A DNA stretch of 32,411 bases. Source: Methanobacteriota archaeon (GTDB lineage Archaea > Thermoplasmatota > B47-G6). Below the pieces are notes generated by a model that had not been told where the DNA came from, made no database searches, and worked only from the letters and a program-made list of their open reading frames with translations. Position numbers and translations under genes: made by a program. Shown one piece after another: positions 1-32,411 of the stretch; position 1 is the stretch's first letter; every line of letters starts with the position of its first letter. Location: positions 1-32,411 of the forward strand of contig JAGGXY010000083.1 of the NCBI GenBank assembly GCA_021162855.1, in the 5' to 3' direction.

Positions 1-164
1 AGACCAATGATATGCTCCCGATGAACCCTGAGGGGGCTGAGGTTGATGTGCCCCAAAGCTTACACAGGCTTACAAATGCCTATGTAGGCTGAACCCCATT
101 ATCTCCCATGGCTATACTATTATATACCTATCTCAAATAATACATGATTTTCAAGGTGATCACT

Positions 165-314
165 ATGGGATTCCCAGAGGCAGAGGCAAGATTGCTCAAT
201 AAGTATATATGCATGAAATGTAGCGCAAGGAATCCTCCAAGAGCAAAACGTTGTAGACGATGTGGCTCAACTAAACTAAGACCAAAAGCTAAGGAACCTA
301 GAGGAGGCAGATAA
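165..314 (+). CDS. rpl40e: 50S ribosomal protein L40e
   Basis: This short ORF falls below the track cutoff. ATG165 to TAA312-314 translates to [49 protein letters not shown]. It has a CxxC...CxxC zinc ribbon and an N-terminus typical of archaeal L40e. A GGTGATC Shine-Dalgarno sits at 155-161. An in-frame ATG at 144 is the alternative start. Confidence 0.85.
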
Positions 315-2552: not shown

Positions 2553-2960
2553 ATGTATAAGATATATAAAATTCCAGACGAGGCAGTCGAAATGAGACCC
2601 TTTAAGATAAAAGGAATTATCTCCAAAGGATTCGGGGAGGGAAAATACTATGTAAGTGCTTACTCCAACATTATTGCAAGGAATTTAGGATGGAAACCAT
2701 ACCCTGGAACCATAAACATAATCGTCAATGAAGCCACTTGGAGAACTGTAAGGGCTCTCGCAAATAAAAAAATAAATGGATTTAAGAAAAATAACAGGAT
2801 CTTTCATGATGTATATTATGTCGAATGTGTCTTAAAAGGTGTTCGTGGCATAATAGTGTTTCCAATAGTAAGTAAGCATGGAAAAAATGTTATAGAAGTA
2901 ATTTTACCGAAAAAAATAAACATAAATATGGGAGAAAATGTGGAGGTTTTAGTAATATAG
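2553..2960 (+). CDS. ribK: CTP-dependent riboflavin kinase (archaeal RibK, MJ0056 family)
   Basis: It shows GFGEGKYYVS and PYPGTINI motifs, and its size (about 120-135 aa) matches archaeal riboflavin kinase. ATG2592 (MRPFKIKG...) is an alternative start. Confidence 0.8.
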   Translation: MYKIYKIPDEAVEMRPFKIKGIISKGFGEGKYYVSAYSNIIARNLGWKPYPGTINIIVNEATWRTVRALANKKINGFKKNNRIFHDVYYVECVLKGVRGIIVFPIVSKHGKNVIEVILPKKININMGENVEVLVI

Positions 2961-4298
2961 CATCTCCTTTTCTATTTTGCTGAGATATTCTGAGGATGCC
3001 TTTACATCCACAAATAGTCTTGAAGCTCTCTCTACGTCTTCCGGCATGACTTCTTTTCTGCCTTCACTCTCTGCAATTATTCTCGAAGGAGTCAATAGTT
3101 GTACTGCATACCTCAAAGATCTTTCTGCACCAAGTTTCACAAGTCTTTCTAGTGCTTCATCATTTATTTTAACGTTCTCTTCTCTCGCCCTAATTCTTAA
3201 TATTTCTCTTATCTCGTCCTCAGAATACTTCCTTGTAACAATTATCAAGAGCCTGTCCAGGAGATCCAAGGGCATTCCGTGTGGCGCCACGGCATCTGTA
3301 CCACGTATCTTTGTAACTCCTCTGTTCGTAGCGAAGATTATTATTGGAGCAAGTTCCTGCTCCAGTGCTCTATTGAGAAATGCAAATGTTTCTATATCTA
3401 ATAATGAAGCTTCGTCTATGAAGAGAACCCCAGGTATTATCTCTGCACGACCTTCTTCTATCCACTCTTTAACCATCTTATCTACTTCCCTTCTTACATC
3501 TTGACTTATCTCTTTTCTCTGAACACCTCCAAAGAATATGTCAAAGAGTGAATATTGAGATCTGCTGTGCATTAAATCAAGCTGATGAAGCGTAAGTGTG
3601 TATACAAACTCCTTCTCCTTCTTTACTGAACCAGAAGGTACAGGCACGGCCTTCTCTGTGTATAAAGTTTCATCACCAATGGCATCCTCAGCAACTCCTA
3701 CACGCACAATGCGGCCACTGTCTATATCTATCATTATAATATCTCCTTCTCTTATTCCCAACTGAACAAGCTGTCTCGTATATCCCTCATCTAGGCTTAG
3801 TTTTTTCTTTTCATCCTTAGTAGCAAGCACAATCTTAGCGCTAACGGGAACCTGCATATATGGATTCCACGGTGAAGCCTTTGTTTGAATGTCTACTTCA
3901 AGCACTTTTCCCTCATAAACGTTCCTCTTTTCTCTCACTCTCACACCAATCGCACTTCTTATAGCCTGAGTGAGGAATTCTGTTTTCTTGATCTCGGCTG
4001 AATAAATCTCGGAAGCTGTTATTGGGACGAAAGGAACATCTTCACCAAGTTCTTTTGCTATAGCCACTGCTATAGCGGTTTTACCACTACCTGGTGGACC
4101 TGCTATTAGAACAGCCTTTCCAGAGAACTTACCTTCCTTTATCATTCTAACTATTATGCCAGCAGCTTCTCTAGCTTCTTCCTGCCCCACCATTCCATCA
4201 GCGGTATGCTTCGCCTTAAGCCCCTCCAGACCAAGTCCTTTTATATGAGAATGGGCATGCACTCTCTCGAATGTTCCGCCTATTTCACGTATCTCCAT
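2949..4298 (-). CDS. TIP49/RuvB-like AAA+ ATPase
   Basis: It has the N-terminal HSHIKGLGL motif, Walker A GPPGSGKTAIA and Walker B LFIDEAS, with a RuvBL-type inserted domain between them. ATG4298 (MEIREIGG...) is preceded by GGTGAT. The track start at 4364 adds an implausible leader. Confidence 0.85.
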   Translation of the reverse strand: MEIREIGGTFERVHAHSHIKGLGLEGLKAKHTADGMVGQEEAREAAGIIVRMIKEGKFSGKAVLIAGPPGSGKTAIAVAIAKELGEDVPFVPITASEIYSAEIKKTEFLTQAIRSAIGVRVREKRNVYEGKVLEVDIQTKASPWNPYMQVPVSAKIVLATKDEKKKLSLDEGYTRQLVQLGIREGDIIMIDIDSGRIVRVGVAEDAIGDETLYTEKAVPVPSGSVKKEKEFVYTLTLHQLDLMHSRSQYSLFDIFFGGVQRKEISQDVRREVDKMVKEWIEEGRAEIIPGVLFIDEASLLDIETFAFLNRALEQELAPIIIFATNRGVTKIRGTDAVAPHGMPLDLLDRLLIIVTRKYSEDEIREILRIRAREENVKINDEALERLVKLGAERSLRYAVQLLTPSRIIAESEGRKEVMPEDVERASRLFVDVKASSEYLSKIEKEMLYY

Positions 4299-4392
4299 GA
4301 CAATCACCAGGGCTAGTTTCCTAAAAGACATCTTGATTGTCTTCAAGAAAAACTCGAAAAACAATTTGTGTAAAAATAAGAAAGAGACATGA

Positions 4393-7703: not shown

Positions 7704-8361
7704 AGAAGAAGGTATTGAAAAAACCATAAGATCAATTCCTAAGGAGAAACTAATCAGCATGGGATACGATGTAGAAGTTATAGTAGTAGATGGAGGGTCG
7801 AAGGATCGAACGAGGGAAATAGCATCTTCGCTTGGTGCTAAGGTTATAATCGAGTCCAGAAAGGGTTACGGTAGGGCTTATAAAACAGGATTTAAAGAGG
7901 CGTCTGGAGACATTATAGTCACTGGAGATGCTGATGGAACATACCCCTTTGAACTCATTCCAGAACTTATTAGAATACTTGAAGAGGAAAAATTAGATTT
8001 CATAAACACAAATAGATTCGAAAAAATGGAAAAAGGGTCTATGAGCTTGCTTCACAAGATAGGAAACAAGATACTAACTTGGACTCTAAGGATTCTCTTT
8101 AAGATAAAGATAGAAGACTCTCAGTCTGGGATGTGGGTCTTCAGAAAAGAACTCTTAAAGAAGCTAAACCTCACAGGAGATGGAATGGAATTCTCTGAGG
8201 AAATAAAAATAGAAGCATTCATGAAAGGTTACGCTAAAGAGATTGGAATACCATATAAGAAACGCACTGGTGAGAAAAAACTTAATAGTTTCAGGGATGG
8301 ATTTAGAAATCTCGTATTCCTTTTCAAGAAGTGGTGGAACATTAGGAGGACCTCGAGATGA
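7654..8361 (+). CDS. Family 2 glycosyltransferase (dolichyl-phosphate sugar synthase-like)
   Basis: The sequence VSIVIPALNEEEGI...VVDGGSKDRT...TGDADGTYP is a classic GT2 fold with a DxD-type motif. A GTG start follows GAGGTGAT. The gene overlaps the NOG1 3' end by 50 nt. Confidence 0.85.
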   Translation: MKNQRKKVSIVIPALNEEEGIEKTIRSIPKEKLISMGYDVEVIVVDGGSKDRTREIASSLGAKVIIESRKGYGRAYKTGFKEASGDIIVTGDADGTYPFELIPELIRILEEEKLDFINTNRFEKMEKGSMSLLHKIGNKILTWTLRILFKIKIEDSQSGMWVFRKELLKKLNLTGDGMEFSEEIKIEAFMKGYAKEIGIPYKKRTGEKKLNSFRDGFRNLVFLFKKWWNIRRTSR

Positions 8362-9368
8362 GGGTGATAATAGGCGGTAAACCTGTTGAAATGAGGAGTG
8401 TCTGGGCAGAAGACGGCATAATAAAGCTTATTGATCAGAGAAGACTTCCAAGGGAGCTTGTCATATTTGAGGCAAAGACGTTAGAAGACGTCGCGTTTGC
8501 AATAAAGGAAATGGTTGTTAGAGGAGCCCCAGCCATAGGAATAACAGCAGCATATGGAATGGCTTTAGCACATGCTCAGGGAATTGATCCAGAACACGCA
8601 GCGAGTGTACTAAGAAATACTAGACCTACAGCTCATGATTTGTTTTTTGCTATAGATTACATGCTAAAGCACTATGATGAGGGATGGGAGGCTGCTGAAC
8701 AATATGCAAACGATGTGATAGAGAAGGCCAGGCTTATAGGAGTTCATGGTGAACCTCTCATAGAAGATGAAGACAGAATACTTACGCACTGTAATGCCGG
8801 TGCCTTAGCTGTTGGTGATTGGGGAACTGCTCTTGCACCCATAAGAATGGCCCACAGAAATGGTAAGAAGGTCTTCGTTTATGTCGACGAAACAAGGCCT
8901 AGACTTCAAGGCATGTTAACAGCATGGGAGCTCCTTAATGAAGGAATAGACCACGTTATAATACCTGACAATGCCGCTGGATACTTCATGTGGAGGGGAG
9001 AAATAGATCTCGTCATAGTAGGTGCTGATAGGATAGCTCTAAATGGAGACTTCGCTAATAAAATAGGAACGTATGAAAAGGCGGTCTTGGCTAAGGAAAA
9101 TGGCATTCCATTCTTTGTTGCGGCACCTATAACAACGTTTGATCCAAACATTGAAAACGGTATGCAAATTCCTATAGAAGAAAGAAGTGAACAAGAGGTT
9201 CTTTCAGTGGACAAACCAATACCCCCTCCAAAGGGATCACGTGCTAGAAACCCAGCATTTGATGTGACCCCACATAAGTATCTAACAGGAATCATAACGG
9301 AATATGGGATAATATATCCCCCATTTAAGAAAAACATAAAGAAGCTATTAAAAAAGATCACTAAGTGA
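8358..9368 (+). CDS. mtnA: Methylthioribose-1-phosphate isomerase-like protein (aIF-2BI / eIF-2B alpha-beta-delta family)
   Basis: The sequence IKLIDQRRLP...VRGAPAIGITAAYGMAL...VGADRIALNGD is typical of the MtnA subgroup. ATGA start/stop overlap with the GT2 gene. Sequence alone cannot exclude a sugar-bisphosphate isomerase role. Confidence 0.8.
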   Translation: MRVIIGGKPVEMRSVWAEDGIIKLIDQRRLPRELVIFEAKTLEDVAFAIKEMVVRGAPAIGITAAYGMALAHAQGIDPEHAASVLRNTRPTAHDLFFAIDYMLKHYDEGWEAAEQYANDVIEKARLIGVHGEPLIEDEDRILTHCNAGALAVGDWGTALAPIRMAHRNGKKVFVYVDETRPRLQGMLTAWELLNEGIDHVIIPDNAAGYFMWRGEIDLVIVGADRIALNGDFANKIGTYEKAVLAKENGIPFFVAAPITTFDPNIENGMQIPIEERSEQEVLSVDKPIPPPKGSRARNPAFDVTPHKYLTGIITEYGIIYPPFKKNIKKLLKKITK

Positions 9369-9371
9369 GAA

Positions 9372-9685
9372 GTCCAACCTAAGGGTTCTCTCTATGGGGG
9401 ATGTTAGTGTGATCTCGTGGAATCTTAATCCCAGTCTCTGCTTCTCGAGGACTATAATCCCGTAGGGATTGGCATTCATAGGCCCGTCATCGGGAGTTCT
9501 TCCCTCGAGACCTCCAATCCCTTCGGGGAACCATTCTGGTTAACCGTAACTTGTGTAATGGCTAACCTTCCCTCCCCTGGCTTCATTGGAGGGCTTTCGG
9601 GATCACGCGAGCCTCACATCCTCGCGGCTTTAGCGTTCCCATTTGGGCTTAGGACTCGCATGTCAAGGACTGCCACACTATAAGA
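9372..9685 (-). ncRNA. Candidate structured ncRNA A (unknown family; paralog of 18725-19160)
   Basis: This is a GC-rich, ORF-free island in AT-rich DNA. On the minus strand, TTTTTAAA (9703-9710) lies about 25 nt upstream of the first helix. Local hairpins sit at 9456-9470 (AATCCC/GGGATT), 9483-9494 (CCCG/CGGG) and 9518-9529. A 7-bp helix pairs 9444-9450 with 9503-9509, and a long-range helix pairs 9399-9407 with 9613-9621. A T6 run follows on the minus strand at 9350-9355. Strand choice rests on G-U pairs and promoter position and is not certain. Confidence 0.5.
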
Positions 9686-9765
9686 GATAAATCCTAAGAA
9701 TGTTTAAAAATTGCAGGGACATTACGTGCCAAACTTTACACTCTCTACCATCTACAAAACAGCCC
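9561..9765. repeat. Copy 1 of a ~200-nt dispersed repeat (partner 19026-19243, same orientation)
   Basis: By manual alignment, roughly three quarters or more of positions are identical to 19026-19243. There is one insertion of about 11 nt in copy 2. The repeat spans the 5' module of the candidate RNA plus its promoter and upstream block. Confidence 0.8.
9700..9765 (-). promoter_or_regulatory. Conserved TATA/BRE-like element plus 37-nt upstream block for ncRNA A
   Basis: CTAAGAATGTTTAAAAATTGCAGGGA differs from its partner at 19171-19196 at only 1 of 26 positions. The block at 9729-9765 matches 19207-19243 at 34 of 37 positions. The TATA is near-palindromic, so divergent plus-strand initiation is also possible. 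Confidence 0.45.
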
Positions 9766-10091
9766 TCGCACTACAAGAACACTCTACTTGCCCTCATGAG
9801 TGCCAAGAGCATCTAAAGCAAATGAGAGCAGGGTGCAGGAGAAAACGGTGCCAAAAGGGAAGTAAAGCAGTAAACGGTTCATAAGAGTTTTCTTTCATAA
9901 GTGCTAAACCTTAAAAACATCAGGACATTAGTGTTTATGATTATTAGTTGACTAGTTCATTTAACGACTAAGAGCCAGCCCACTAGATCCTATAGGCAAA
10001 CATGATCGAAACAATAACACCCAGCTTTGAGGTCTATTTTAGCTCAAAATCTCCTTCCCAAGATTTAGAACATTTTTAGAGGTGATGAATT

Positions 10092-10355
10092 ATGGCAAAA
10101 GCCGAAGAGATCGTGAGGCAGGTTGTTGAGATCCTAGATGGAATTATAGAGGAAGAAGGCGTTCCAAGAAATATAAAGAGGGGTGCAAACGAGGCAAAAG
10201 AGCTTATATCTGGAGGTACTGAGAATATAGGTGCTAAAGCTGCCAGCGCTATAAATATACTTAACGAGCTTATAGTTGATCCAAACACACCAATCCACGT
10301 TAGGACACAAATCCTTAGTGCAATTGCATTATTAGAACAACTTACGAAGGAGTAA
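10092..10355 (+). CDS. UPF0147-family small helical protein
   Basis: The 87-aa protein carries VPRNIKRGANEAK...DPNTPIHVRTQI, characteristic of the archaeal UPF0147 family. GAGGTGAT lies 5 nt upstream of the ATG. Confidence 0.75.
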   Translation: MAKAEEIVRQVVEILDGIIEEEGVPRNIKRGANEAKELISGGTENIGAKAASAINILNELIVDPNTPIHVRTQILSAIALLEQLTKE

Positions 10356-18446: not shown

Positions 18447-18724
18447 ATTTTGTATCACCGAAGTTTATGCGCTCCTCGAAATACTATTTAAGATATGTAG
18501 TAATAAAATACTTTTATCGTAATTTTCACAGCCTAATAATCGAATAAGAATACCACGATCGTTTAAGAGATTTTGTAACACGCCAATATCTACTCTAGTG
18601 CATGTAACATTGTATTTTACCTCACGCTAAAAGTGTACATTATGTTAGAAATCTCTCATTAGGTATAAGGGCTATTATCTCTGTAGTGGACTTTAAATAA
18701 GTTTAAGTAAGTTTATATTTATGT

Positions 18725-19160
18725 GTGGATAAGTTCTATAAGCCTGGTGGGCAGTGAAGAGTTCCTGAGGGTGGGTAAAGTGTCTTCTTAACCTTAGTGA
18801 GGGTACGCGTGATAATCTACGCGAGAGTATCATCTTATAGGCAGAGGGATTGTGAGATCTCGAGAGGCTGTGAGCTAGGTAAGAGTCCGAGGATGAGGGG
18901 CCTTGTATTCTCCCGCTTACTGGAAATACTACCACATTCATGAGGTATAAGAGAAAGAAACGAAAGATGCGTAAGACTCCATTATGATCAGCCGCAACTT
19001 CCATAAAGTTCGTAAACGTCGTTGCGGCTGACCTTCCAGCCTCGAGTAAGAACCTTCATTGGCTGGCTTTCGGGAGTATGCGAGCCCCACATCCTCGGAG
19101 GCTTTAGCGATCCCCATTCGGGCTTGGGACCCCACATATCGGGGATCGTCACATTATAAT
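18725..19160 (-). ncRNA. Candidate structured ncRNA B (unknown family; paralog of 9372-9685, with larger 3' domain)
   Basis: This GC-rich island of about 430 nt contains only short ORFs with no plausible products. On the minus strand, TTTTTAAA (19180-19187) lies about 25 nt upstream. A perfect 10-bp hairpin pairs 18989-18998 with 19021-19030. A long-range helix pairs 18887-18900 with 19085-19098 at 13 of 14 positions. Another pairs 18859-18870 with 19037-19046. A 5-bp hairpin pairs 18806-18810 with 18819-18823. The 5' module is homologous to ncRNA A. Confidence 0.5.
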
Positions 19161-19243
19161 GAGATAAGCCCTAAGAGTGTTTAAAAATTGCAGGGAACAT
19201 TAAATACCAAACTTTACGCTTTTTACCATCTACAAAACAGCCC
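19026..19243. repeat. Copy 2 of the ~200-nt dispersed repeat (partner 9561-9765)
   Basis: See copy 1. The orientation is the same, and the two copies lie about 9.5 kb apart. Confidence 0.8.
19171..19243 (-). promoter_or_regulatory. Conserved TATA/BRE-like element plus 37-nt upstream block for ncRNA B
   Basis: CTAAGAGTGTTTAAAAATTGCAGGGA (19171-19196) and CCAAACTTTACGCTTTTTACCATCTACAAAACAGCCC (19207-19243) are near-identical to 9691-9716 and 9729-9765. Confidence 0.45.
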
Positions 19244-19444
19244 ACGAGAACCCGATGAAGATCATACGGACAGGAGCAATGCTCCGGATAACACATGGCA
19301 TGGAAGAAATCTCACTATGATAAATAAATCCTAGCTACAGTTAGCCCTTACCAACCATAGCTAGAAAGAGGAGCAACGTAAATATAATACTTGAGTAGTT
19401 GTTCTTCGTATTGAACACAGTAACAAGCAGTACAGGTGTAAGCT

Positions 19445-21448: not shown

Positions 21449-21667
21449 ATGCAAAGAGAAGACGAAGAGTATAAGGAATCACTTATTGGCATCTCTGAAG
21501 AGATGGAGAAGTGGGAAGCTAGATTGAAAGTCATCAAAACACAAGAAAGGTATGTGAAATACCATTTATCTTATTATAAAAGATTATTGCGCAATCTCAA
21601 AAGGCTTTTCAGCTTTAAGGCATTCGTGAGATTCCTGAGGTTCATGTTCAGAGAAGTCAGGAGGTAA
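21449..21667 (+). CDS. Hypothetical small basic protein (72 aa) immediately upstream of leuS
   Basis: This ORF has an acidic N-terminal half and a very basic, aromatic C-terminal half. Its TAA stop overlaps the first leuS ATG (TAATG). I recognise no family. An AT-rich TATA-like sequence lies upstream. Confidence 0.3.
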   Translation: MQREDEEYKESLIGISEEMEKWEARLKVIKTQERYVKYHLSYYKRLLRNLKRLFSFKAFVRFLRFMFREVRR

Positions 21668-31925: not shown

Positions 31926-32089
31926 CAAATGACCTCGATGTGCTCTTCAAAACGACACTACATAAATAAAATGTAATGATAGCGAGGATTATATGCAAAT
32001 AAATTTAAGAAGAAGAAAGCTAAAGATATCAAAGGATTTAAAAACATATACTTGATAGATCATATTTTCACAAGCGTTGCTCTCGTCCT

Positions 32090-32411
32090 TGTGGTCTTCA
32101 TTGGGCTTTTGTGGTGCACGCGGACTCCACGCATCTCCCGTTTCTATTCTCTCCCATTGGATCTTTATTTTTACTGTCATTTGGGGTGTTTGAGTGCCTT
32201 GCCAGGCCTGTAGAGCTTATCTATATAAGTATGACACTATAAAACCTATTTAAACTTACCATTACAGTAATAGCCTTTGAGCAATTATGACATAAACATT
32301 ACATGATCTCAATCAAGAACCGTTTCCTCCTGCATCCATTTTTATTTATTTTAGCCATTTTCGATTCTTACGAGAGCAAATAGAGCGTTCTTGTGGTGCA
32401 GGAGGTTGGCC
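32090..32411. repeat. Degenerate third copy of the 9561-9860-type element, truncated by the window edge
   Basis: Short matches to copy 1 occur in the same orientation and order. CTTCATTGG..GCTTT..CACGCG at 32096-32125 matches 9581-9609. TCCCATTGG at 32153-32161 matches TCCCATTTGG at 9637-9646. TTTAAAC..ACAG at 32249-32266 matches TTTAAAAATTGCAG at 9703-9716. GCAAATAGAGC...GGTGCAGGAG at 32376-32402 matches GCAAATGAGAGCAGGGTGCAGGAG at 9818-9841. This copy is more AT-rich, and the helices seen in copies 1 and 2 are not preserved. Confidence 0.3.

What the first reader, a model, noticed from the sequence alone, without database searches (positions are those of the whole stretch)
9372..9700. GC-rich ORF-free island A folds into a multi-helix RNA of about 310 nt convergent with mtnA
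The 723-nt gap between mtnA and the UPF0147 gene is far larger than other intergenic spaces in this window, which range from overlaps to about 150 nt. Its left half is much more GC-rich than the flanking DNA. That contrast is how structural RNAs stand out in AT-rich hyperthermophile genomes. It contains a three-way-junction-like unit. A 7-bp helix (9444-9450 with 9503-9509) encloses the hairpins AAUCCC-UAC-GGGAUU (9456-9470) and CCCG-AUGA-CGGG (9483-9494). A CCC-N4-GGG hairpin lies at 9518-9529, followed by the shared 5' module. A TATA box lies about 25 nt upstream on the minus strand. A T6 run on the minus strand at 9350-9355 lies just past the body, inside the 3' end of mtnA.
Basis: partly seen in the sequence, partly recalled or inferred. 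Interest (0 to 1): 0.65.

Follow-up and report, generated by a model that had tools for sequence, protein, structure and literature searches.

The report
Dispersed structured repeats, not one RNA
The GC-rich gap after mtnA is not a unique 310-nt RNA gene but a patchwork of short, high-copy repeat modules that litter this hydrothermal-vent archaeon's genome; one module carries its own promoter-like TATA box and a ~150-nt stretch whose hairpins are kept by compensatory changes.

Summary
The stretch is not a single RNA gene.

It is two adjoining, unrelated dispersed repeats.
- M2 (9534-9765) holds the "shared 5' module", the TATA box and 60 more conserved bases beyond it.

In vent metagenomes both reach 10- to 90-fold the depth of the flanking genes, on dozens of contigs with unlike flanks.

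Further M2 copies:
- window 18985-19243 (82% identical to copy A);
- a Nezhaarchaeales-like contig (L009);
- a third archaeal contig, next to tRNA-Ser (L010).

Orthologous sites in every related genome fetched are empty. Assemblies of this species break at these repeats, and both ends of the window lie in repeats.

M2 has two covarying hairpins, plus a G.U-rich helix that favours the minus strand. M1 folds no better than shuffled sequence (z -0.85). Nothing matches Rfam, phage, plasmid or viral collections. No RNA-seq data exist.

Best reading: a mosaic of non-autonomous mobile repeats, with M2 as a promoter-plus-small-RNA cassette. The mobilising mechanism is unknown.

The parts
9372..9528 (.). 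Repeat module M1. The most repeated core is 9437-9464.
   Evidence: Summed contig depth reaches 620 against about 7 for the flanking genes, from 42-57 contigs per run. Loose ends lie at 9403 and 9528. Fold z is -0.85 (minus) and -0.27 (plus). It is not detectably related to M2 (z about 1).
9534..9765 (-). Repeat module M2, copy A. It comprises a conserved terminal 36 nt, a TATA box and a structured part of about 150 nt.
   Evidence: It is 82% identical to 18985-19243. nhmmer gives E 1e-77. Depth is 50-270 against about 7, and copies break off at 9534 and 9765 with unlike flanks.
9703..9711 (-). TATA-like box inside M2 (TTTTTAAA on the minus strand, TTTAAAAA on the plus strand). It is nearly palindromic.
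   Evidence: Read directly. It is invariant in copies A and B and reads TTTAAAGA in L010. No variant reaches 25% over the TTTAAA part among the laid copies.
9730..9765 (.). The most conserved stretch of M2, at its end: CAAACTTTACACTCTCTACCATCTACAAAACAGCCC on the plus strand.
   Evidence: Copies A and B share 20 identical bases. No variant reaches 25% over the equivalent 19208-19243. The family boundary is sharp at ...CAGCCC.
9604..9662 (-). M2 helix H1 (9662-9650 pairs with 9616-9604). It is rich in G.U pairs.
   Evidence: RNAalifold and pair counts: 51 of 52 cells pair, 15 of them G.U. The mirrored helix on the other strand pairs in only 37 of 52.
9570..9593 (-). M2 hairpin H2 (CCCUCC/GGGAGG here, CCAGCC/GGCUGG in copies B and L010), with AAUGAAG in its loop.
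   Evidence: Two of six pairs change on both sides and all 24 cells pair.
9538..9567 (-). M2 hairpin H3, a 13-bp stem with a loop of 4-22 nt. It lies 4 nt (9534-9537) inside the element's end as mapped at 9534.
   Evidence: Four of 13 pairs change on both sides. Loop length and sequence vary freely.
9350..9355 (-). T6 run, the first oligo-T downstream of the M2 promoter on the minus strand. It lies inside the 3' end of mtnA.
   Evidence: Read directly. Its use as a terminator is inferred only.
9762..9860 (.). Module M3, a diverged copy.
   Evidence: It is 71% identical to 32399-32319 on the opposite strand (E 1e-4). The copy at the window end has depth up to 220.
18985..19243 (-). M2 copy B, closer to the family consensus than copy A.
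   Evidence: nhmmer gives E 7e-98. Depth is 90-430 against about 6, with a sharp end at 19243/19244. The fold z of its structured part is -3.14 (minus) against -1.89 (plus).
18874..19039 (+). Partial, decayed, inverted M2 copy (B') that shares hairpin H3 with copy B.
   Evidence: nhmmer gives E 1e-5 over model positions 157-275.
18810..18889 (.). M1-like core. Relative to M2 it is inverted compared with island A.
   Evidence: Depth is 77-127 against about 6. The local alignment to the reverse complement of M1 has z 5.1.
32084..32411 (.). Repeat island C at the contig end: modules at 32084-32131, 32180-32275 and 32324-32411 (M3-like).
   Evidence: Depth is 40-220 against about 5-7. Other assemblies of this species end near here.
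1..110 (.). GC-rich repeat at the contig start. A further repeated piece lies at about 366-405.
   Evidence: The 1-540 bin has depth about 70 against about 8. One contig joins 405 directly to 9534, the end of M2.

Best explanation
Island A is a junction of two independent members of a set of short, non-coding, high-copy dispersed repeat modules. These modules have colonised the intergenic DNA of this AT-rich vent archaeon and of at least two other archaeal genomes.

Shown:
- Each module has its own boundaries.
- They are present in tens of copies with unrelated flanks.
- They occur in varying order and orientation.
- They are absent from the same loci in relatives.
- They break assemblies.

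M2 (9534-9765) is a compact cassette. Read on the minus strand it has three parts in order:
1. a strongly conserved 36-nt end;
2. a TATA box;
3. a stretch of about 150 nt with three helices, two of them kept by compensatory changes.

Inferred:
- M2 is, or recently was, moved as DNA by a factor encoded elsewhere.
- Its TATA box fires on the minus strand and gives a small structured RNA.
- That RNA has no terminator of its own. In island A it would read through M1 into the tail of mtnA and stop near the T6 run.

M1 is most likely a passenger repeat with no demonstrated RNA fold.
For: Copy number and boundaries:
- Contigs of four vent or sediment metagenomes were laid at 80% identity or more. Depth is about 7 on mtnA and UPF0147.
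- Depth is up to 620 on 9437-9464, 80-270 on 9534-9635 and 30-60 on 9705-9765.
- 64-120 contigs per run were laid, most of them running into unlike sequence.
- Copy B shows the same pattern, with a sharp end at 19243/19244. So does island C.

Paralogy:
- Copies A and B are 82% identical over the block, which spans the TATA box.
- Two more copies were found in JGI contigs L009 and L010.

Independence of the modules:
- M1 is absent beside copies B, L009 and L010.
- The M1-like core is inverted in island B.
- Other M1 copies continue into different sequence past 9528.
- M1 and M2 are not alignable.

Insertion-like distribution:
- No copy was found in L001-L003 (mtnA loci), L011-L015 and L021-L022 (SRP54 loci), or L019-L020 (sufC loci).
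- Island B adds about 670-740 nt relative to L013.

Assembly breaks:
- The window is a whole contig and both its ends lie in repeats.
- Sister assemblies begin inside copy B.

Host breadth:
- The window's proteins match Thermoplasmata MAGs.
- The sufC on L009 is 86% identical to a Nezhaarchaeales-labelled MAG protein, and its other named hits are Thermoprotei/Thermoproteales MAGs.

Structure:
- 97.5% of cells pair, and 8 pairs change on both sides. Slid controls pair in 45% of cells or fewer.
- On the minus strand 153 of 157 cells pair, 23 of them G.U. The mirrored structure on the other strand pairs in 132 of 157.
- Fold z for the M2 structured part, minus strand against plus strand, is -3.1 against -1.9 for copy B and -4.2 against -1.7 for L010.
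Against: - No transcript data exist, so the promoter's use, its direction and the RNA ends are unproven. The TATA box is nearly palindromic and a plus-strand start at about 9733 is equally possible.
- M2 has no terminal inverted repeats.
- No target-site duplication or conserved target motif could be read from the four flanks.
- No transposase, integrase or nuclease gene lies in the window. The way it moves is therefore unknown and mobility is inferred from distribution alone.
- Depth sums over all community members that carry the repeats, so per-genome copy number is only "tens".
- The covariation rests on four sequences in two sub-types.
- The structure was predicted on the strand that it then favours.
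- Copy A itself is a weak folder (z -1.64) with a degraded 5' domain.
- Taxon labels for L009 come from MAG names.
Confidence: 0.65

Rival explanations
1. One dedicated ncRNA gene of about 310-330 nt lies on the minus strand. It has a paralogue at 18.8-19.2 kb that shares its 5' domain, and it acts as a cellular structural or regulatory RNA.
For: - The island is GC-rich in an AT-rich genome.
- The whole stretch folds with z -3.2 on the minus strand.
- The TATA box and the T6 run are correctly spaced.
- M1-like and M2 sequences lie near each other in islands A and B and in at least one other copy: the joint from 18866 to 19054.
Against: - The 3' body is not conserved in copy B and is not stable beyond chance.
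- The two halves have separate boundaries, copy numbers and orientations.
- It is absent at orthologous loci.
- Conservation extends 60 nt upstream of the TATA box.
- No Rfam family matches.
Confidence: 0.08
2. M2 is a multi-copy cellular small-RNA gene family with a shared promoter and regulator site. It spreads by ordinary duplication, not by transposition.
For: - A conserved TATA box is followed by a structured stretch of about 150 nt with compensatory changes.
- The upstream 36 nt could be a transcription-factor site.
- All copies seen are intergenic.
Against: - There are tens of copies with sharp common boundaries and unrelated flanks.
- Copies about 85% identical sit in Thermoplasmata-like and Thermoproteota-like contigs, yet none is found in closer relatives.
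- Decayed and inverted fragments lie beside intact copies.
- Copies cause assembly breaks.
Confidence: 0.1
3. The modules act as DNA or as parts of mRNAs, like bacterial REP/BIME or BOX mosaic repeats. They would serve as binding sites, supercoiling or termination signals, or mRNA end protection. There would be no dedicated RNA product, and the TATA box would be incidental or a portable promoter for neighbouring genes.
For: - The modules form a mosaic in varying order and orientation in intergenic DNA.
- Hairpins H2 and H3 pair equally well on both strands.
- M1 sits directly after the mtnA stop codon.
- M2 has no terminator of its own.
Against: - The G.U-rich helix H1 and the fold z-scores consistently favour one strand.
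- The TATA box and its surroundings are among the best conserved parts of M2.
Confidence: 0.12

Closest known systems
Bacterial mosaic intergenic repeats (E. coli BIME/REP, pneumococcal BOX elements). Compared from my own knowledge.
   Same: Both consist of short non-coding modules combined in varying order and orientation. Both are confined to intergenic DNA, present in tens to hundreds of copies, and able to form stable hairpins.
   Different: This family is archaeal. Its modules are longer (about 100-250 nt). One module carries a TATA box. No GTAG-tagged palindrome or RAYT-type partner was seen. Near-identical copies occur in different phyla.
Archaeal MITEs such as Sulfolobus SM1-SM4, and MITE-like Correia elements of Neisseria, which carry promoters. 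Compared from my own knowledge.
   Same: Both are small, non-coding and high-copy. Both are missing from orthologous sites in relatives. Both have promoter activity plausibly built in.
   Different: M2 has no terminal inverted repeats. No target-site duplication could be shown. No parent insertion sequence was identified.
IS200/IS605-derived PATEs with TnpB right-end guide RNAs, and IS110 bridge RNAs. Compared from my own knowledge.
   Same: Both lack terminal inverted repeats. Both have a hairpin a few bases from one end. Both have a conserved structured non-coding RNA inside the element followed by flank-derived, variable sequence.
   Different: There is no matching hairpin at the other end of M2. 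The four flanks share no target motif. No TnpA, TnpB, IscB or IS110 gene lies in the window. There is no Rfam hit, including HEARO.
High-GC ncRNA genes of AT-rich hyperthermophiles (the Hgc RNAs found by base-composition screens). Compared from my own knowledge.
   Same: Both are GC-rich, ORF-free islands that stand out from an AT-rich genome.
   Different: Hgc-type RNAs are single-copy genes conserved at orthologous loci, and most are H/ACA guides. This island matches none of them and is not conserved in relatives.

Membership tests
Any described RNA family (Rfam 15, including RNase P, SRP, HgcC/E/F/G, H/ACA, C/D, ribozymes, HEARO) | A covariance-model score at or above the family's gathering threshold | tested here: not met
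   There were no matches at gathering level anywhere in the window. The best hits over island A have E 3-5 to unrelated families. Nothing matched over island B or over the L009 and L010 copies.
MITE in the strict sense | Small, non-coding, many dispersed copies | tested here: met
   M2 is 232-259 nt. No ORF is shared in frame between copies. Depth is 10-90 times that of the flanks, over dozens of contigs.
MITE in the strict sense | Terminal inverted repeats | tested here: not met
   An inverted-repeat search over three M2 copies with their flanks found only internal hairpins.
MITE in the strict sense | Target-site duplication | tested here: inconclusive
   The flanks of copies A, B, L009 and L010 show no shared or duplicated short motif. 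The nearest empty sites are too diverged (about 74% in coding DNA) to place the junctions.
MITE in the strict sense | A related autonomous element that supplies the transposase | not testable with these tools
   The window contains none. The metagenome contigs that carry other copies cannot be retrieved as sequence.
IS200/IS605-derived PATE or TnpB guide-RNA element | Subterminal hairpins at both ends and a conserved target motif 5' of the left end | tested here: not met
   Only H3 lies near an end. The other 80 nt fold no better than chance (z +0.6). The sequences flanking GGGCTG... differ...GCGA...TCGT and ...GTGG (alignment).
Mosaic intergenic repeats (BIME/BOX type) | Distinct short modules joined in varying order and orientation, intergenic only | tested here: met
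   M1, M2, M3 and M4 have separate depth peaks and breakpoints. The M1-like core is inverted relative to M2 in island B compared with island A. One contig joins 405 to 9534. All sites seen are intergenic.
Single-copy structural ncRNA gene of a hyperthermophile | Conserved at the orthologous locus in related genomes | tested here: not met
   The mtnA loci L001 (90% amino-acid identity), L002 and L003 lack it. L001 has tRNA-Asp there instead.
Single-copy structural ncRNA gene of a hyperthermophile | Helices kept by compensatory substitutions | tested here: inconclusive
   This is met for M2 (8 pairs), but from only 4 sequences. It cannot be tested for M1, because no second M1 copy could be fetched as sequence.
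Single-copy structural ncRNA gene of a hyperthermophile | A discrete transcript | not testable with these tools
   No RNA run holds the stretch.

The most novel reading that the evidence does not exclude
M2 is a non-autonomous, RNA-carrying mobile element. Its small structured RNA, followed by flank-derived sequence, would serve as a guide or bridge for a recombinase or nuclease encoded elsewhere in the community. That would explain its lack of terminal inverted repeats, its built-in promoter, the hairpin next to one end, and its presence at about 85% identity in different archaeal phyla.
Probability: 0.08. Interest if true: 0.85.

Novelty: new variant of a known kind. Interest (0 to 1): 0.45.

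Why it matters
Three reasons.

1. GC-rich, well-folding islands in AT-rich thermophile genomes are routinely read as structural RNA genes. This case shows that such an island can be a pile-up of selfish repeats, which is a useful caution for RNA-gene screens.

2. Dispersed mosaic repeats are well known in bacteria but barely described in archaea. This family is abundant enough to fragment MAG assemblies. It carries a promoter-like element that could rewire neighbouring genes.

3. The family appears in Thermoplasmata-like and Thermoproteota-like contigs. That points to horizontal spread among vent archaea by an unknown vehicle.

If the M2 RNA proves to take part in its own mobilisation, it would add an archaeal case to the RNA-guided transposon story.

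Tried and rejected
- **Known RNAs.** RNase P, SRP, H/ACA, C/D, Hgc RNAs, ribozymes and HEARO were rejected by Rfam at gathering level and at E up to 10. The CCGAUGA motif lacks the invariant U of a hammerhead core.
- **tRNA or a tRNA remnant.** ARAGORN found nothing in the window. There is no similarity to the tRNA-Asp that occupies the site in L001.
- **CRISPR repeat.** Rejected because there is no regular spacing, and similarity runs over 80-125 nt with graded shoulders.
- **Diversity-generating retroelement pair.** Rejected because the differences between copies A and B are not limited to adenines.
- **Small peptide genes.** Frames are broken by indels between copies. None of ten candidate ORFs is in the 15-billion-protein collection.
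- **Virus or plasmid origin.** No match was found in phage, plasmid or IMG/VR collections with three patterns and blastn.
- **M1 as a diverged M2.** Not significant.
- **Searching for more copies.** A 23-base pattern found nothing in 185,579 species genomes and two contigs in JGI metagenomes. A concatenated six-frame pseudo-protein query meant to catch spurious ORFs on other copies returned nothing. Two window proteins could not be looked up because their called starts differ.
- **Literature.** Searches found no description of this family.

Full report
**What is at the coordinates**

The window is archaeal. mtnA (8358-9368), a UPF0147-type gene (10092-10355), SRP54, TrmY, LeuRS and FBP aldolase/phosphatase are recognisable. 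The closest proteins come from Thermoplasmata MAGs. The DNA occurs only in hydrothermal-vent and sediment metagenomes.

The gap between mtnA and the UPF0147 gene is 723 nt. GC rises to 0.49-0.57 over 9400-9699 against about 0.35-0.45 around it.

The 329-nt stretch folds at -113 kcal/mol on either strand. Its z-score is -3.2 on the minus strand and -2.2 on the plus strand. No Rfam family and no tRNA is found anywhere in the window.

**The stretch is composite**

Positions 9534-9765 align with 18985-19243 at 82% identity. The block runs straight through the TATA box (9703-9710). It ends 60 nt beyond, at ...TACCATCTACAAAACAGCCC. I call this block M2.

The rest of the proposed RNA, about 9372-9528 (M1), carries the "three-way junction". 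Four results count against it being part of a structured RNA:
- It has no counterpart next to copy B.
- It folds no better than dinucleotide shuffles (z -0.85 minus, -0.27 plus).
- It has a competing 14-nt helix.
- It is not alignable with M2.

**Both parts are high-copy dispersed repeats**

Contigs of four public metagenome runs were laid on the region at 80% identity or more.
- mtnA and UPF0147 sit at depth about 7.
- Depth reaches about 300-620 over 9423-9471 (peak 9437-9464), 80-270 over 9534-9635 and 30-60 over 9705-9765.
- This depth comes from 64-120 mostly short contigs per run. Many of them run on into unrelated sequence at 9403, 9528, 9534 and 9765.

Copy B behaves the same way. Depth is 90-430 over 18990-19243, with a sharp end at 19243/19244 and diverse flanks. 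A separate small peak lies at 18810-18881. That peak is an M1-like core, and relative to M2 it lies in the opposite orientation to island A.

The end of the window carries three further repeated pieces. One of them (M3) also follows M2 in island A. The start of the window is repetitive too, and one metagenome contig joins position 405 directly to 9534.

The window is a complete contig. Other assemblies of the same species begin inside copy B and end near island C. This is what repeats do to short-read assemblies. Depth sums over all carriers in the community, including a relative at about 18x that also has copies at contig ends. Per-genome copy number can therefore only be put at "tens".

**Distribution**

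A 23-base pattern from the M2 core found nothing in one genome per GTDB species. It found two JGI contigs.
- L010 has a full M2. Its H3 end lies about 35 nt from a tRNA-Ser gene on the same strand, and the tRNA has its own TATA box.
- L009 has an M2 cut by the contig end, 170 nt upstream of sufC.
- The L009 sufC is 86% identical to a Nezhaarchaeales-labelled MAG protein, and its other named hits are Thermoprotei/Thermoproteales MAGs.

A profile of the four copies finds no copy in any orthologous or related locus fetched. These were the mtnA loci L001-L003, the SRP54 loci L011-L015 and L021-L022, and the sufC loci L019-L020.

Relative to L013, island B is an extra 670-740 nt between conserved flanks. 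At island A the neighbours are rearranged: L001 has tRNA-Asp after mtnA, and L002 has the UPF0147 gene inverted.

A partial inverted M2 (B') lies tail-to-tail with copy B.

This pattern has four features: sharp common ends, unrelated flanks, empty orthologous sites, and decayed fragments beside intact copies in more than one phylum. It fits a mobile element. It does not fit a housekeeping RNA gene.

**Anatomy of M2**

Read on the window's minus strand, M2 has these parts in order:
1. GGGCUGUUUUGUAGAUGG... and about 60 nt of very conserved sequence;
2. the TATA box;
3. about 25 nt;
4. about 150 nt holding helix H1 (9662-9650 with 9616-9604), hairpin H2 (9593-9588 with 9575-9570, loop AAUGAAG) and hairpin H3 (9567-9555 with 9550-9538);
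5. CCAGAAYGG at the end.

On four sequences, 97.5% of cells pair and eight pairs change on both sides, mainly in H2 and H3. Slid controls pair in 45% of cells or fewer.

On the minus strand 153 of 157 cells pair, 23 of them G.U. The mirrored structure on the other strand pairs in 132 of 157, and the loss falls almost entirely in H1.

Fold z-scores of the structured part favour the minus strand in every copy. They are strong for the consensus-like copies: copy B -3.1 against -1.9, and L010 -4.2 against -1.7. Copy A is weaker (-1.6 against -1.4), and its 5' domain is degraded.

Among the laid copies, the terminal 36 nt and the TTTAAA core show no variant at 25% or more, whereas the structured part varies at a dozen sites.

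M2 has no terminal inverted repeats. It has no oligo-T tract of its own. The four available flanks share no target motif.

**How it most likely works**

Shown: island A is M1 abutting M2, and both are dispersed repeats.

Inferred:
- M2 is a non-autonomous mobile cassette whose TATA box drives a small structured RNA on the minus strand.
- In island A this transcription would read through M1, antisense to the last bases of mtnA, to the T6 at 9355-9350.
- An RNA of about 330 nt may therefore exist, but as read-through across two repeats rather than as a designed molecule.

The direction of the nearly palindromic TATA box is not settled. A plus-strand start at about 9733 would put the conserved 36 nt at the 5' end of an outward transcript. 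Which enzyme moves the element is unknown. The window holds only housekeeping genes.

**Comparison with known systems**

The behaviour resembles bacterial mosaic repeats (BIME/REP, BOX) and promoter-bearing MITEs (Correia elements). Among archaea it resembles the Sulfolobus MITEs.
- It fails the MITE test for terminal inverted repeats.
- It fails the IS200/IS605-PATE test for paired subterminal hairpins and a target motif.
- It matches no Rfam family.

I file it as a new variant of the dispersed-repeat kind, not as a member of any named family.

**Limits**

- No RNA data exist.
- Other copies could be seen only as depth, breakpoints and 30-nt loose ends, not as sequences. M1 could therefore not be tested for covariation.
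- The M2 covariation rests on four sequences.
- Searches of phage, plasmid and viral collections, of spurious ORFs and of the literature found nothing.

Noticed in passing
L010:3146-3353 (+): This stretch matches Rfam HgcG (Pab40, an H/ACA guide RNA) at 57 bits, E 8.5e-14. That is below the gathering score of 77. It is likely a diverged H/ACA sRNA in the organism that also carries an M2 copy.
   Followed up: no
window 165-314 (+): A small [52 protein letters not shown], looks like ribosomal protein L40e. This is my own reading and was not scanned. The mechanical ORF list shows only a 90-aa ORF on the opposite strand (128-400).
   Followed up: no
window 9913-9935 (+): A second motif, TTAAAAACATCAGGACATTAGTG, resembles the M2 TATA region (TTAAAAATTGCAGGGACATTACGTG). 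It lies about 180 nt upstream of UPF0147. A similar GTTTAAACACCTGCAGGGCTG lies about 90 nt upstream of sufC in L009. These may be a shared promoter or operator motif, or chance.
   Followed up: partly
L001:8074-8148; L002:11157-11433: Gene order after mtnA differs among close relatives. L001 has tRNA-Asp there. L002 has the UPF0147 gene in the opposite orientation, 150 nt from mtnA. The repeat island sits at a rearrangement point.
   Followed up: partly
window 21449-21667 (+): Gene calls in sister assemblies and relatives place a conserved ORF of about 72 aa with no Pfam hit between TrmY and LeuRS (for example L017 2164-2382 and L013 3496-3714).
   Followed up: no
window 18693-19004 (-): A 103-aa ORF spans the mostly single-copy, GC-rich left part of island B. 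It is not in the protein collection and matches no family, so it is probably not a gene.
   Followed up: partly
window 2949-4364 (-): This ORF encodes a TIP49/RuvB-like AAA+ protein (Pfam TIP49, E 6e-138). To my knowledge that family is uncommon in archaea.
   Followed up: no
window 19244-19290, 32073-32131, 366-405: A short module (CCCRATGAAGAYCAYAMGGAC...) recurs beside M2 copy B, in island C and near the contig start. The copy in island C has depth about 130. It loosely resembles the H2-loop region of M2, but the M2 profile does not detect it.
   Followed up: partly
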